From the NCBI GenBank assembly GCA_964600985.1, contig CAZRJR010000001.1, positions 147,270 to 211,269 of the forward strand: DNA of 64,000 bases, written 5' to 3'. Below are positions 16,272-18,186 of the stretch, in pieces (positions within the stretch are counted from its first letter, which is position 1; every line of letters starts with the position of its first letter). A program made the position numbers and the translations under genes. The notes below the pieces were generated by a model. The model had not been told where the DNA came from and made no database searches. It saw only the letters and a list, made by a program, of their open reading frames with translations. The stretch is from an uncultured Candidatus Saccharibacteria bacterium (GTDB lineage Bacteria > Patescibacteriota > Saccharimonadia > CAILAD01 > JADZBC01).

Positions 16272-17734
16272 TGAGCTTAGAGTATTTATCTATCACCGAG
16301 GCCCACGATTTACTGGTGGGTAAAAAGGTGAGTGCAGTCGAGCTAACACAATACTACCTAGATAGAATCACCAAGCTCGATGGCAAGGTGCGAGCTTGCC
16401 TTACTGTGTGCACTGATGAGGCATTAGCCGCTGCTAGGCGAGTCGATGCCGACATTGCGGCTGGTAAAGATATCGGATTGCTTACTGGCATTCCCTATAC
16501 GGCTAAAGACATGTTCCTAACCAAAGGCATTCGCTCTACGGCTGCGAGCAAAATTCTCGCGAGCTTTGTGCCACCATATTCTGCCACCGTGATCGATAAG
16601 CTTAATGCGGCCGGCGCAGTCTTGCTAGCCAAAGTAAACCAAGATGAATTCGCACATGGTGGTAGTACTGAGAATAGCGGCTTTCACCCTACTCACAACC
16701 CGTGGGATTTGGGCCGAGTGCCAGGTGGTTCGAGTGGTGGTTCGGCTGCAGCGGTGGCGGCAGACTTTGGCATATTTAGTATGGGCACCGATACCGGTGG
16801 GTCGATTCGCCAGCCAGCAGCGTATTGTGGTGTAGTGGGACTCAAGCCCACCTACGGGGCTGTGAGTCGCTATGGCGTGGTGGCGATGGGTAGTAGTTTG
16901 GATTGCATAGGGCCCATAACGCGCTCTGCCGAAGATGCCGGCATAGTCTTTGACACCATTGCAGGTCGCGATGGAAGAGATGCTACGACTATTAATATAG
17001 ACGCAAATCGCAAAGAAATTGCCAGAACTAAGAAGATGCGAATCGGAAGCTATGCCATGATAGACGTGGAAGAAGATAAGTTCGGTGACATAGCTGGCTT
17101 TGCCGAGGCTATGCAGGCGGCCGGGCATAGTGTGGATTTGCGCCCACTATCACCAACGAGCAAAAAGGTAAAAGACGATGTTGCCTTGGCATCCTACTAT
17201 GTGCTTACTCCGTCCGAAATTAGTTCCAACTTGAGTCGCTATGATGGTGTTCGCTTCGGACATAGTAGCGAGCAAGCACATACTTTGCGCGAAACCTACG
17301 ACAAAAGTCGTGATGAAGGCTTTGGTGATGAGGTAAAGCGCCGTGTGCTGACGGGCACATATGCGCTCTCGGCCGGCTATTACGATGCGTACTATAAGAA
17401 AGCCATGCAGATTCGTACATTGCTGCGTGAACAGTTCGAAAAGATGTTTGAACAACATGACATTTTAATTACGCCAACTACGCTTGCACCGGCTTTTAAA
17501 TTAGGTGAGAAGCAAGACCCCGTTGCTATGTATATGACCGACATTTTTACCGTGTCTGCTAATCTGGTTGGCATCCCGGCTATAAGCATACCTGTCGGTT
17601 TTGTTGATGATATGCCTGCCGGCTTGCAACTCATGGCGCCCCAGGGCCACGATGCTGATCTGCTGGCTGTGGCGGCCGCCTACCAATCGACAACGGCATG
17701 GAATGATTTAAAACAAAGGAGTCCTAAGCTATGA
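16271..17734 (+). CDS. gatA: Asp/Glu-tRNA amidotransferase subunit A.
   Basis: Amidase signature GGSSGGSAAAVAA..GTDTGGSIRQPA. 487 aa. Confidence 0.95.
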   Translation: MSLEYLSITEAHDLLVGKKVSAVELTQYYLDRITKLDGKVRACLTVCTDEALAAARRVDADIAAGKDIGLLTGIPYTAKDMFLTKGIRSTAASKILASFVPPYSATVIDKLNAAGAVLLAKVNQDEFAHGGSTENSGFHPTHNPWDLGRVPGGSSGGSAAAVAADFGIFSMGTDTGGSIRQPAAYCGVVGLKPTYGAVSRYGVVAMGSSLDCIGPITRSAEDAGIVFDTIAGRDGRDATTINIDANRKEIARTKKMRIGSYAMIDVEEDKFGDIAGFAEAMQAAGHSVDLRPLSPTSKKVKDDVALASYYVLTPSEISSNLSRYDGVRFGHSSEQAHTLRETYDKSRDEGFGDEVKRRVLTGTYALSAGYYDAYYKKAMQIRTLLREQFEKMFEQHDILITPTTLAPAFKLGEKQDPVAMYMTDIFTVSANLVGIPAISIPVGFVDDMPAGLQLMAPQGHDADLLAVAAAYQSTTAWNDLKQRSPKL

Positions 17735-18186
17735 GCACATCTGGTCTTATTGCCGTACTCGTGCTGAGTGCTTTGGCTGTGGTGCTCCTGCGTCAGTCGG
17801 CCAAGAGCTCGCAAAGGCGCAAGCCGTATCGCGGTATGAAGGTTGAACGTGCTGGCGAAGTCTATGACTTAAGCCGAGTTGCACCCAAATGGCACGAAAT
17901 TCAAGCCATGCTCAAGAACGGACCGAGCGGATTGCGTAGTGCGTTGTTTGAAGCCGACAAATTACTTGATTACGTCATGCAGGCTAAGGGCTTTCATGGC
18001 GCGACTATGGGTGAGCGACTCAAAAGCGACGGTAAACGACTGGGTAATTTGAACGACGTGTGGGCAGCGCATAAACTGCGCAACCAGTTTGCCCACAGCC
18101 TGGACCATGACATGGTTCCGGCCCAAGTAACCAAGGCAGTAAAGGACTTGGGTAAGGCAATTAGCGACCTAGGGGTGCGCATATGA
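17731..18186 (+). CDS. Hypothetical membrane-anchored protein inserted between gatA and gatB, with an R-x4-H motif (HEPN-like?).
   Basis: 151 aa. N-terminal TM helix (LIAVLVLSALAVVLL), alpha-helical C-terminus with AAHKLRNQFAHSLD. ATGA overlaps both the gatA stop and the gatB start. Confidence 0.5.
   Translation: MSTSGLIAVLVLSALAVVLLRQSAKSSQRRKPYRGMKVERAGEVYDLSRVAPKWHEIQAMLKNGPSGLRSALFEADKLLDYVMQAKGFHGATMGERLKSDGKRLGNLNDVWAAHKLRNQFAHSLDHDMVPAQVTKAVKDLGKAISDLGVRI

What the first reader, a model, noticed from the sequence alone, without database searches (positions are those of the whole stretch)
17731..18186. A small membrane-anchored protein with an R-x4-H (HEPN-like) motif is translationally coupled between gatA and gatB
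gatC, gatA and gatB are normally contiguous. Here a 151-aa ORF overlaps the gatA stop and the gatB start by ATGA on each side, so it is co-translated with the amidotransferase. It has one N-terminal TM helix and an all-helical C-terminal part containing AAHKLRNQFAHSLD. That segment is an R-x4-H-x-L arrangement matching the catalytic Rx4-6H signature of HEPN/HepT-type RNases. A membrane-tethered HEPN-like protein embedded in a tRNA-amidotransferase operon would be unusual. Toxin-like or tRNA/RNA-processing roles are conceivable. The motif alone is weak evidence.
Basis: inference. Interest (0 to 1): 0.6.

Follow-up and report, generated by a model that had tools for sequence, protein, structure and literature searches.

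The report
Membrane-tethered HEPN protein inside gatCAB operon
A small membrane-anchored protein with the fold and intact catalytic motif of HEPN RNA-cutting enzymes sits between two subunits of an essential tRNA-modifying enzyme throughout the ultra-small Patescibacteria, which points to an undescribed housekeeping job rather than the usual toxin or defence role.

Summary
A 151-aa ORF (17731-18186, +) overlaps the gatA stop and the gatB start by ATGA on each side, has its own Shine-Dalgarno site, and forms a gatC-gatA-X-gatB unit.

The HEPN reading is supported.
- R117-N-x3-H122 lies at the end of core helix 3.
- D76, W111, H114, R117 and H122 are identical in 150/150 diverse representatives.
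- hhalign places R/N/H on the HepT catalytic residues. The nearest clade is DUF4145-like (61% probability).
- No curated Pfam, NCBIfam, PADLOC or PHROGs model reaches threshold.

The family is large: 3159 clusters at 50% identity and at least 556 species genomes, all titled or organised like Patescibacteria. It almost always follows gatA directly. None was found in viral contigs.

The N-out/C-in anchor is conserved in 98% of members.

In Southlakia epibionticum the gene at the same position, SEML1_0535, is Tn-seq-depleted (GD/GD/ES). A supplementary table already assigns it this fold, but the text never discusses it.

I think it is most likely a housekeeping, membrane-tethered HEPN RNase or RNA-binding factor tied to GatCAB and tRNA, not a toxin. 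Catalysis, substrate and any GatCAB contact are inferred, not shown.

The parts
15941..15969 (+). Promoter-like site just upstream of gatC. It is the only such site before the four-gene unit.
   Evidence: Consensus scan, 9/12 matches with a TG extension. This is weak evidence: 2 sites were found against 7.1 expected in shuffles.
15978..16271 (+). gatC (97 aa). Its stop overlaps the gatA start by 1 nt.
   Evidence: Pfam GatC 2.6e-23; ORF list.
16271..17734 (+). gatA (487 aa), the glutaminase subunit. Its stop overlaps the X start (ATGA).
   Evidence: Pfam Amidase 1.6e-134; sequence.
17716..17721 (+). Shine-Dalgarno-like AAGGAG, 9 nt upstream of the X start, inside the 3' end of gatA.
   Evidence: Read directly from the sequence.
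17731..18186 (+). Gene X: 151-aa membrane-tethered HEPN-superfamily protein (whole ORF including stop).
17737..17814 (+). N-terminal helix (residues 3-28) with hydrophobic core at residues 4-21. It is a single-pass membrane anchor with predicted N-out/C-in topology.
   Evidence: Model helix 3-28. Across 350 family members, 98% have a 17-mer with KD>=2.0, and K+R averages 0.13 before the helix against 3.77 after it.
17815..17868 (+). Basic, poorly conserved linker (residues 29-46) with a low-confidence beta-hairpin at 37-46.
   Evidence: pLDDT 59-63 for residue blocks 21-40. This region is variable and gapped in alignment A1.
17869..18177 (+). HEPN domain (residues 47-149): H1 47-61, H2 65-85, insert with helix 93-103, H3 107-122, H4 130-146.
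17950..17970 (+). E74-A-D76-K-L-L-D80 in helix 2. D76 is the invariant acidic residue.
   Evidence: D76 150/150, K77 137/150, D80 140/150. A helix-2 acidic residue is a HEPN feature (PMC3710099).
18004..18024 (+). T92-M-G-E-R96-L-K98, an unusually conserved segment in the H2-H3 insert.
   Evidence: R96 is R or K in 147/150 and K98 is K or R in 126/150. This insert is normally poorly conserved in HEPN domains.
18061..18096 (+). W111-A-A-H114-K-L-R117-N118-Q-F-A-H122: the Rx4H catalytic signature plus an extra invariant Trp and His, at the C-terminal end of helix 3.
   Evidence: W111, H114, R117 and H122 150/150; N118 149/150. hhalign aligns W/R/N/H with HepT and H114/N118/H122 with DUF4145 H/N/H.
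18171..18175 (+). Shine-Dalgarno-like AGGGG, 7 nt upstream of the gatB start, inside the 3' end of X.
   Evidence: Read directly from the sequence.
18183..19607 (+). gatB (474 aa). Its start overlaps the X stop (ATGA).
   Evidence: Pfam GatB_N 7e-114 and GatB_Yqey 2.4e-43.
19616..19645 (+). Promoter-like site right after gatB. It marks the probable end of the gatC-gatA-X-gatB unit and the start of the next one.
   Evidence: Consensus scan, 10/12 matches. Weak evidence.

Best explanation
X is a real, vertically inherited gene. Its homologues were found only in contigs titled as, or organised like, Patescibacteria.

It encodes a single-pass inner-membrane protein. The N-terminus faces out and the C-terminal domain faces the cytoplasm. 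That domain is a minimal HEPN domain, nearest to the DUF4145-like clade, with a complete and invariant catalytic signature: helix-2 Asp76, His114, Arg117-Asn118-x3-His122.

It is made from the same transcript as GatC, GatA and GatB by translational coupling.

Most likely it is a housekeeping factor that uses the HEPN cleft, probably as a dimer like other HEPN RNases, to bind or cleave RNA at the inner face of the membrane. Cleavage would be metal-independent and leave a 2',3'-cyclic phosphate. I expect the substrate to be linked to translation. tRNA handled by GatCAB (tRNA-Gln, tRNA-Asn, or their mischarged Glu/Asp forms) is the leading candidate.

Shown: the gene, the overlaps, the conservation, the fold class, the motif position and invariance, the topology signal, and the synteny.
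Inferred: catalysis, dimerisation, substrate, and any functional or physical tie to GatCAB.
For: Fold:
- AF2 pLDDT 88.5, pTM 0.72.
- The Foldseek top hit is the same.

Motif:
- R117...H122 ends helix 107-122, as the superfamily definition requires (PMC3710099).
- D76, W111, H114, R117 and H122 are 150/150 and N118 is 149/150 across representatives of 50%-identity clusters.
- hhalign against real HepT proteins aligns R/N/H (31% probability, E 5e-4).
- hhalign against real DUF4145 proteins gives 61%, E 8e-5.
- Reversed-sequence decoys give 0.9% and 0.2%.
- Sub-threshold Pfam hits go to three different HEPN families (Swt1, RiboL-PSP, Ymh), mostly over the motif region.

Topology:
- 98% of 350 members have the anchor.
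- K+R averages 0.13 before it and 3.77 after it.

Link to GatCAB:
- gatA lies upstream on the same strand in 79 of 83 X-selected loci, and within 20 nt of an X start in 69 of those 79. These include loci titled Saccharibacteria, Uhrbacteria, Woesebacteria and Parcubacteria.
- A start codon overlaps the gatA stop in 59/79 loci. The X stop overlaps a gatB start in 35/67.
- X divergence tracks GatA (rho 0.69) and GatB (rho 0.82).
- X is present in 18/19 informative close relatives chosen by GatB alone.

Housekeeping rather than conflict:
- No partner gene.
- No relatives among 2.9 million viral contigs.
- No PADLOC or PHROGs hit.
- Southlakia SEML1_0535, at the same position, is flagged 'core family' and 'Patescibacteria enriched'. 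Its Tn-seq calls are GD/GD/ES, with reads falling 126.6 to 5.9 to 2.8 (PMC10633639 Table S1).
- In one Peribacteria locus without gat genes, X overlaps rlmH, another gene that acts on translation RNA.
Against: - No biochemical or interaction data exist. HEPN domains with intact motifs can be non-nucleolytic (Csx28).
- No curated HEPN model reaches threshold. The best is HEPN_Swt1 at 17.5 bits against a cut-off of 27.5. The hhalign probabilities are moderate.
- The Tn-seq depletion may be a polar effect on the essential gatB just downstream.
- SEML1_0535 was matched by position, length (139 aa) and assigned fold, not by sequence.
- Gene order alone can persist by inheritance in reduced genomes. 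In about 11 loci gatB is not near X, and unrelated genes sit between gatA, X and gatB in some lineages.
- Genes can sit between gatA and gatB without a functional tie. From my own memory, not checked here, pfkA does so in Mycobacterium tuberculosis.
- Saccharibacteria already have RNase Y, J and III, so no obvious gap in RNA decay needs filling.
Confidence: 0.4

Rival explanations
1. X is a membrane-tethered HEPN RNase or RNA-binding protein whose function has nothing to do with GatCAB. It could act in general or signal-dependent RNA turnover at the membrane, as was proposed for other TM-HEPN proteins. On this view its place in the operon is a frozen historical accident of a streamlined genome.
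For: - TM-HEPN proteins were predicted to process RNA at the inner face of the membrane (PMC3710099).
- X stays next to gatA but loses gatB in Uhrbacteria-type loci. It occurs without any gat gene in Peribacteria loci L055 and L063.
- Unrelated genes (HicAB-like pair, histidine phosphatase, GIY-YIG) are tolerated inside the cluster.
Against: - gatA-X adjacency with overlapping stop and start is kept across lineages as divergent as those titled Saccharibacteria, Woesebacteria, Parcubacteria and Uhrbacteria: 69/79 loci overlap or lie within 20 nt. That is more than inertia usually preserves.
- RNase Y, J and III are already present.
Confidence: 0.22
2. X is a non-catalytic fourth subunit or adaptor. 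The HEPN domain would bind GatCAB, tRNA or a nucleotide such as ATP, as the nucleotidyltransferase substrate-binding HEPN domains do. The anchor would hold the amidotransferase at the membrane.
For: - Translational coupling on both sides suggests stoichiometric co-production.
- DPAM assigns the Southlakia counterpart to the 'Nucleotidyltransferase substrate binding subunit/domain'.
Against: - Non-catalytic HEPN domains typically lose the Rx4-6H motif wholly or partly (PMC3710099). Here R, N and H, plus D76 and H114, are invariant in 149-150 of 150 representatives.
- No nucleotidyltransferase partner is present.
- GatB keeps its own tRNA-binding YqeY domain.
Confidence: 0.17
3. X is a Csx28-like oligomeric membrane pore built from an N-terminal TM helix and a cytoplasmic HEPN-like bundle. 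The 'catalytic' residues would serve protomer contacts rather than RNA cleavage.
For: The overall architecture and small size match Csx28: an N-terminal TM helix plus a cytoplasmic four-helix bundle with a HEPN motif, forming an octameric pore (10.1101/2021.11.02.466367).
Against: - Csx28 has a divergent motif whose Arg points away from the interface, and it works with Cas13b. X has the canonical R-N-x3-H and no cas13b neighbour.
- A constitutive pore would be an odd product of an essential housekeeping operon.
Confidence: 0.05
4. X is a toxin or abortive-infection/defence HEPN RNase (HepT-like or Abi-like) that lodged in the gat operon as an addiction module.
For: Most bacterial HEPN RNases belong to conflict systems (PMC3710099). 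The structural neighbours include HepT toxins, AbiA and AbiV.
Against: - There is no MNT or other antitoxin gene. The neighbours overlap on both sides.
- The residue two after His is never Tyr, which is the site HepT needs for AMPylation. That column is V/A/S/T/P/L.
- No PADLOC or PHROGs hit, and none in viral contigs.
- Divergence tracks GatA and GatB. The position is fixed in hundreds of species.
- Insertions in the Southlakia counterpart are depleted rather than tolerated.
Confidence: 0.03

Closest known systems
DUF4145-like HEPN domains (Pfam PF13643, clan CL0291), including the TM-fused forms described by Anantharaman et al. 2013
   Same: - Best profile-profile match: hhalign 61%, E 8e-5.
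- Shared signature A-H-x-[IL]-R ... N-x-x-A-H, including the extra conserved His three residues before the Arg.
- ProtNLM named the Southlakia counterpart 'DUF4145 domain-containing protein' with score 0.98.
- Single-TM fusions with a predicted cytoplasmic HEPN domain are known in this clade.
   Different: - X does not match the Pfam DUF4145 model. It was not among the 25 most-matched families at E<=10.
- X has canonical R-x4-H spacing. The five DUF4145 proteins aligned here have three extra residues between R and N.
- The window protein's TM helix has no WP pair, unlike the Vibrio-type TM-DUF4145.
- DUF4145 proteins are typically fused to, or sit beside, restriction, helicase or defence modules. 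X sits in a housekeeping operon.
HepT (DUF86) toxins of HepT-MntA toxin-antitoxin pairs, e.g. Shewanella SO_3166 (PDB 5yep)
   Same: - hhalign places X's W111, R117, N118 and H122 on HepT's conserved W, R, N and H.
- The motif lies about 30 residues from the C-terminus in both.
   Different: - No adjacent MntA gene.
- No Tyr at H+2.
- X has an N-terminal membrane anchor.
- Only 31% hhalign probability and no Pfam DUF86 hit.
- Vertically inherited rather than mobile.
Csx28, accessory protein of type VI-B2 CRISPR-Cas13b
   Same: A small protein with one N-terminal TM helix and a cytoplasmic four-helix bundle carrying a HEPN-type motif.
   Different: - Csx28 has a divergent motif and a face-to-back octameric pore, with no nuclease interface.
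- It is encoded next to cas13b.
- It is not a top structural match of X.
Ire1 (KEN domain) and C6orf70, the eukaryotic membrane-tethered HEPN RNases
   Same: A HEPN RNase domain held at the cytoplasmic face of a membrane by a single TM segment, with a housekeeping or stress role rather than a conflict role (PMC3710099).
   Different: They are eukaryotic, multi-domain (kinase plus KEN) and regulated by lumenal sensing. No sequence relationship beyond the superfamily was tested here.
SEML1_0535 of Southlakia epibionticum ML1 (Wang et al., Cell 2023, Tables S1 and S2)
   Same: - A 420-nt 'hypothetical protein' between gatA (SEML1_0536) and gatB (SEML1_0534), overlapping both.
- No Pfam hit.
- DPAM assigns residues 26-135 to ECOD e1wtyA1, the nucleotidyltransferase substrate-binding (HEPN-type) fold.
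- Flagged as a core and Patescibacteria-enriched family.
- Tn-seq calls GD/GD/ES.
   Different: It is a positional counterpart only. I did not see its sequence. The paper's main text never mentions it: 0 occurrences of HEPN, gatA or gatB.
RNase Y (functional analogy only)
   Same: An endoribonuclease anchored to the membrane by a single N-terminal helix, with a cytoplasmic catalytic domain (my own knowledge of the family).
   Different: It has a different fold (KH plus HD) and is metal-dependent. It is already encoded in Saccharibacteria (SEML1_0712), so X does not replace it.

Membership tests
HEPN superfamily (Anantharaman et al. 2013; Pfam clan CL0291) | [quoted passage not shown] | tested here: met
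   [not shown]
HEPN superfamily (Anantharaman et al. 2013; Pfam clan CL0291) | [quoted passage not shown] | tested here: met
   R117-N118-Q-F-A-H122, and H122 is the last residue of helix 107-122. R and H are 150/150 and N is 149/150. They align with HepT R/N/H. The definition is quoted.
HEPN superfamily (Anantharaman et al. 2013; Pfam clan CL0291) | Conserved acidic residue in helix 2, lying near the motif (typically as Ex3[KR]) | tested here: inconclusive
   D76 is invariant (150/150) and lies in helix 65-85. The local pattern is E-A-D-K-L-L-D, not Ex3[KR].
HEPN superfamily (Anantharaman et al. 2013; Pfam clan CL0291) | Significant match to a curated HEPN family profile | tested here: not met
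   Only sub-threshold hits: HEPN_Swt1 in 13/94 members (best E 0.002; the two hits whose scores were shown reach 17.5 and 15.3 bits against a 27.5 cut-off), HEPN_RiboL-PSP in 6, Hypoth_Ymh in 5. NCBIfam gave 0 hits. The PDB sequence profile search gave only noise. This places X outside the existing models, not outside the superfamily.
HEPN superfamily (Anantharaman et al. 2013; Pfam clan CL0291) | Metal-independent endoribonuclease activity giving 2',3'-cyclic phosphate ends, usually from a face-to-face dimer | not testable with these tools
   This needs biochemistry, or at least multimer modelling. The structure tool takes single chains only.
DUF4145-like HEPN family (PF13643) | Match to the PF13643 model, with the signature A-H-x-I-R-x-x-G-N-x-x-A-H | tested here: inconclusive
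   PF13643 was not among the 25 most-matched families at E<=10. hhalign against five genuine DUF4145 proteins gives 61% probability, E 8e-5, with H114, N118 and H122 aligned. The reversed decoy gives 0.2%. X lacks the three residues between R and N.
HepT-MntA (HEPN/MNT) type II toxin-antitoxin toxin | Adjacent minimal nucleotidyltransferase (MntA) gene | tested here: not met
   In the window, X overlaps gatA and gatB on either side. gatA is the upstream neighbour in 79/83 related loci. By contrast, all five HepT genes I fetched have a nucleotidyltransferase gene just upstream.
HepT-MntA (HEPN/MNT) type II toxin-antitoxin toxin | RX4HXY motif, with the Tyr that MntA AMPylates | tested here: not met
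   The position two after His122 is V, A, S, T, P or L among the six commonest residues (L in the window). Tyr is not among them. Tyr is invariant in the five HepT proteins aligned here.
Csx28 (type VI-B2 CRISPR accessory pore) | Encoded next to cas13b, with a divergent HEPN motif used for face-to-back octamer contacts | tested here: not met
   [not shown]
GatCAB amidotransferase complex (as an extra subunit) | Physical association with GatA, GatB or GatC | not testable with these tools
   Only genomic evidence is available: a conserved operon, overlapping stops and starts, and correlated divergence.

The most novel reading that the evidence does not exclude
X is a genuine fourth component of the Patescibacterial tRNA-dependent amidotransferase system. 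On this reading it is a membrane-anchored HEPN enzyme that docks GatCAB at the membrane and acts directly on its tRNA substrates. It might remove or cleave Glu-tRNA-Gln or Asp-tRNA-Asn that escapes amidation, or process tRNA 3' ends. That would make indirect Gln/Asn-tRNA synthesis a membrane-localised, RNase-policed pathway in a whole phylum. It would also be, as far as I know, the first essential housekeeping HEPN RNase in bacteria.
Probability: 0.15. Interest if true: 0.85.

Novelty: new variant of a known kind. Interest (0 to 1): 0.6.

Why it matters
Bacterial HEPN RNases are known almost only from conflict systems: toxin-antitoxin pairs, abortive infection and CRISPR effectors.

Here a HEPN domain with a fully intact catalytic signature is fixed inside one of the most conserved housekeeping operons of translation. 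This holds across a phylum that makes up a large share of bacterial diversity. In the one genetically tractable species, the gene at the same position is strongly depleted in Tn-seq.

If the link to GatCAB and tRNA is real, it adds an unknown step or control point to indirect Gln/Asn-tRNA synthesis. It would also give function to one of the 'Patescibacteria-enriched core families' that are still dark matter.

The family has 3159 clusters at 50% identity and no curated model, so defining it would improve annotation of thousands of genomes.

It is directly testable now, because Southlakia epibionticum can be transformed.

Tried and rejected
- Direct family searches with the window protein found nothing meaningful. 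Pfam gave only Kinesin_assoc at E 0.22. NCBIfam, PADLOC and PHROGs gave nothing.
- PDB sequence searches with the single sequence and with the family profile gave only noise (RanGAP1, E 0.33).
- The afdb50 structure library was not available, so I have no annotated AlphaFold-database neighbours.
- A second large profile search meant to reveal domain fusions or named relatives listed only 120 look-alikes of 137-146 aa. None has a Pfam domain or a name beyond 'hypothetical'.
- A viral contig scan found no relative.
- Literature searches for HEPN with gatB, Saccharibacteria or Patescibacteria found nothing relevant.
- I could not measure R117-H122-D76 distances because model coordinates are not exposed.
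- I could not model an X dimer or an X-GatCAB complex because the structure tool takes one chain and only unmodified sequences.
- I considered X as a replacement for a missing RNase Y or RNase E and rejected it. Southlakia encodes RNase Y, J and III.
- I considered a secreted protein with a signal peptide and rejected it. There is almost no positive charge before the hydrophobic helix and a strongly basic stretch after it, in 99% of members.
- I considered the minus-strand ORFs over the same DNA (17962-18126 and 17994-18224) as alternatives and rejected them. Only the + frame is conserved across hundreds of genomes.
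Full report
**1. The observation**

The ORF at 17731-18186 (+) encodes 151 aa. From the sequence itself:
- The gatA stop TGA (17732-17734) is nested in the X start ATG (17731-17733).
- The X stop TGA (18184-18186) is nested in the gatB start ATG (18183-18185).
- gatC and gatA overlap by one base.
- Each internal start has a Shine-Dalgarno-like element: AAGGAG at 17716-17721 and AGGGG at 18171-18175.

The flanking genes are bona fide GatC, GatA (Amidase, 1.6e-134) and GatB (GatB_N plus GatB_Yqey). 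A simple consensus scan finds promoter-like sites only just before gatC (15941-15969) and just after gatB (19616-19645). No terminator-like site lies at a gene junction within the unit. This is weak evidence but fits a four-gene unit.

The motif by itself is not significant. R[NDH]x3H occurs nine times in long ORFs of this window, including LigA and DnaE.

**2. A real, conserved gene**

- A search of 5.8 billion proteins found 95 clusters of 133-161 aa. None has a Pfam domain. All are called 'hypothetical', from Saccharibacteria or Patescibacteria.
- A profile search of 1.84 billion representatives found 3159 proteins at E<=1e-3 and 2454 at E<=1e-10. Most of the listed ones are about 130-190 aa.
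The record titles name Saccharibacteria, Uhrbacteria, Woesebacteria, Parcubacteria, Peribacteria and Peregrinibacteria.
- A few records are titled Gammaproteobacteria, Magnetospirillaceae or Nanoarchaeia. They have the same ligA-gatC-gatA-X neighbourhood, so they look mislabelled.

**3. Conserved residues**

In an alignment of the window protein with 149 representatives of 50%-identity clusters:
- D76, W111, H114, R117 and H122 are identical in all 150.
- N118 is identical in 149.
- R96 is R or K in 147.
- K77, D80, G90, A113 and K115 each exceed 90%.

The motifs are E-A-D-K-L-L-D, T-M-G-E-R-L-K and V-W-A-A-H-K-L-R-N-x-x-A-H-E. The window protein has Ser at 123, where 141/150 have Glu or Asp.

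**4. Fold**

AlphaFold2 with the 94-sequence alignment gives pLDDT 88.5 and pTM 0.72. The elements are:
- helix 3-28
- a low-confidence linker and hairpin
- helices 47-61, 65-85, 93-103, 107-122 and 130-146

The superfamily definition (PMC3710099) has these parts:
- a four-helix bundle with a frequent insert between helices 2 and 3
- Rx4-6H at the end of helix 3 running into the loop to helix 4
- a polar residue after the Arg
- a conserved acidic residue in helix 2 close to the motif

X fits each. H2 is 65-85 and carries invariant D76. The insert is 86-106. H3 is 107-122 and ends in R117-N-Q-F-A-H122. H4 is 130-146. I could not measure side-chain distances because coordinates are not exposed.

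**5. Sequence-level tests**

No curated model reaches threshold. The sub-threshold Pfam hits fall on three different HEPN families: HEPN_Swt1 in 13/94 members, RiboL-PSP-HEPN in 6 and Hypoth_Ymh in 5. Most of those checked cover the motif and last helix.

To test residue equivalence I fetched genuine family members from plasmids, using remembered consensus peptides only as bait:
- Five HepT/DUF86 genes, each with a nucleotidyltransferase gene upstream. Their profile hits PDB 5yep HepT.
- Five DUF4145 genes.

hhalign of the X family against HepT gives 31% probability and E 5e-4. It aligns W111, R117, N118 and H122 with the HepT W, R, N and H.

Against DUF4145 it gives 61% and E 8e-5. It aligns H114, N118 and H122 with the DUF4145 H, N and H. 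DUF4145 has three more residues between R and N. Reversed-sequence decoys score 0.9% and 0.2%.

So X belongs to the HEPN superfamily and is nearest to the DUF4145-like clade. It is a distinct family that existing models do not capture.

**6. Topology**

Of 350 family members, 98% have a strongly hydrophobic 17-mer, starting at a median of residue 5. K+R averages 0.13 in the residues before it and 3.77 in the 15 after it. In 99% there are more positive charges after than before. By the positive-inside rule this is an N-out/C-in anchor with the HEPN domain in the cytoplasm. It is not a signal peptide.

**7. Genomic context**

In 83 loci chosen for X:
- gatA lies upstream on the same strand in 79.
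- A start codon overlaps the gatA stop in 59 of those, 36 of them by 4 nt. Ten more lie within 20 nt.
- gatB follows in 67, with overlap in 35 and a gap of 20 nt or less in 17.

These gap counts took the start codon nearest the stop, so they lean towards small gaps.

Variants also exist:
- In Uhrbacteria-type loci the order is ligA-gatC-gatA-X, followed by unrelated genes.
- Some lineages have insertions: a HicB/HicA-like pair between gatA and X (L062), a histidine phosphatase between X and gatB (L034), and a GIY-YIG gene between gatC and gatA (L076).
- In Peribacteria locus L055, X has no gat neighbour and overlaps rlmH by 4 nt.

X divergence tracks that of GatA (Spearman 0.69) and GatB (0.82).

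As an unbiased test I fetched 80 metagenome loci by GatB similarity alone. Among close relatives (GatB at least 63% identical) with enough upstream sequence, 18 of 19 have X directly before gatB. None has gatA abutting gatB. The exception, L097, has an mTERF-like repeat protein there. At about 45% GatB identity, 19 loci show the ordinary gatA-gatB adjacency without X, so X is a lineage-specific insertion. No relative was found in 2.9 million viral contigs.

**8. What is already on record**

Wang et al. (Cell 2023, PMC10633639) list SEML1_0535 in Table S1. It is a 420-nt hypothetical gene overlapping gatA (SEML1_0536) and gatB (SEML1_0534). It is flagged 'core family' and 'Patescibacteria enriched'. 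Its HMM calls are GD/GD/ES, and normalised reads fall from 126.6 to 5.9 to 2.8. Non-essential genes listed nearby, SEML1_0531 to SEML1_0533, keep about 190 to 2000.

The main text never mentions HEPN, gatA or gatB. The fold assignment therefore exists in a table but has not been described or interpreted. I matched this gene by position, size and fold, not by sequence. Polarity on gatB could explain the depletion.

Anantharaman et al. 2013 had already predicted three groups of bacterial TM-fused HEPN proteins with cytoplasmic domains. None was in a gat operon. 'Amidotransferase' does not occur in that paper.

**9. Mechanism**

The invariance of the whole catalytic constellation argues that the cleft is used. 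Non-catalytic HEPN domains typically lose the motif. I therefore favour a metal-independent RNase, or at least an RNA- or nucleotide-binding function, at the cytoplasmic face of the membrane.

The persistence of coupled gatA-X(-gatB) across very divergent lineages argues for a tie to GatCAB and its tRNAs. That tie is inferred only. My estimates:
- HEPN fold: about 0.9
- cleft used for RNA: about 0.7
- functional link to GatCAB or tRNA: about 0.6
- the full statement: about 0.4

The rivals are:
- a HEPN RNase unrelated to GatCAB (0.22)
- a non-catalytic anchor or fourth subunit (0.17)
- a Csx28-like pore (0.05)
- a toxin or defence module (0.03)

Against the toxin model: there is no partner gene and no Tyr at H+2. 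There are also no defence-database hits or viral copies. Inheritance tracks GatA/GatB, and insertions are depleted rather than tolerated.

Against the Csx28 model: X has a canonical rather than divergent motif and no cas13b. Its structural neighbours are canonical HEPN proteins.

X does not substitute for RNase Y, J or III, which Southlakia encodes.

**10. Verdict**

X is a new, very large, unmodelled family of the HEPN superfamily with a known type of architecture (TM plus cytoplasmic HEPN). Its setting is unusual: a housekeeping, probably essential one.

I rate it a new variant of a known kind, interest 0.6. What it cuts or binds, and whether it touches GatCAB, are open and directly testable.

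Noticed in passing
window 19669-20635: Right after gatB comes a second tightly coupled trio of small membrane proteins. They are an 86-aa TM protein with no family, a 142-aa YtxH-like protein (7.2e-13) and a 93-aa DUF5665 protein (1.9e-11). The second overlaps the first by 4 nt and the third overlaps the second by 1 nt. The trio lies between gatB and dnaE. YtxH or DUF5665 genes occupy the same place in relatives L001 and L003.
   Followed up: partly
window 18097-18099 (residue 123): The window protein and its closest relatives have Ser right after the catalytic-type His122 (A-H-S). In the family, 141 of 150 representatives have Glu or Asp there. Whether this matters for activity is unknown.
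   Followed up: no
L062 3536-4007: A HicB-like (UPF0150, 4e-16) and HicA-like (5.6e-5, below the Pfam cut-off) pair is inserted between gatA and X in one Patescibacteria genome. gatB lies 2.3 kb further downstream.
   Followed up: partly
L076 974-1264: A GIY-YIG nuclease-domain ORF (1.1e-15) sits between gatC and gatA. Two more ORFs separate gatA from X. This genome's record is titled Gammaproteobacteria but it is 886 kb and has Patescibacteria-type synteny.
   Followed up: partly
L055 1037-1905: In a Peribacteria contig without gat genes nearby, X overlaps by 4 nt a SPOUT methyltransferase of the RlmH type (1.1e-48). A roughly 200-aa ORF with no family precedes X there and also in Peregrinibacteria locus L068.
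   Followed up: partly
L097 19-687: This close relative (GatB 68% identical) is the one exception to X-gatB adjacency. An mTERF-like repeat protein (2e-5) overlaps the gatB start by ATGA instead of X. The contig is too short to show where gatA and X are.
   Followed up: partly
L026, L040, L045, L060, L075, L076, L082 (record titles): Several public MAG records that carry the ligA-gatC-gatA-X arrangement are titled Nanoarchaeia, Gammaproteobacteria or Magnetospirillaceae. The gene content around X looks like Patescibacteria, so the taxonomic labels are probably wrong.
   Followed up: no
window 13917-24398: The order ligA - gatC-gatA-X-gatB - small membrane proteins - dnaE is kept in many Saccharibacteria loci. 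X therefore sits in a long, stable block of replication and translation genes.
   Followed up: partly
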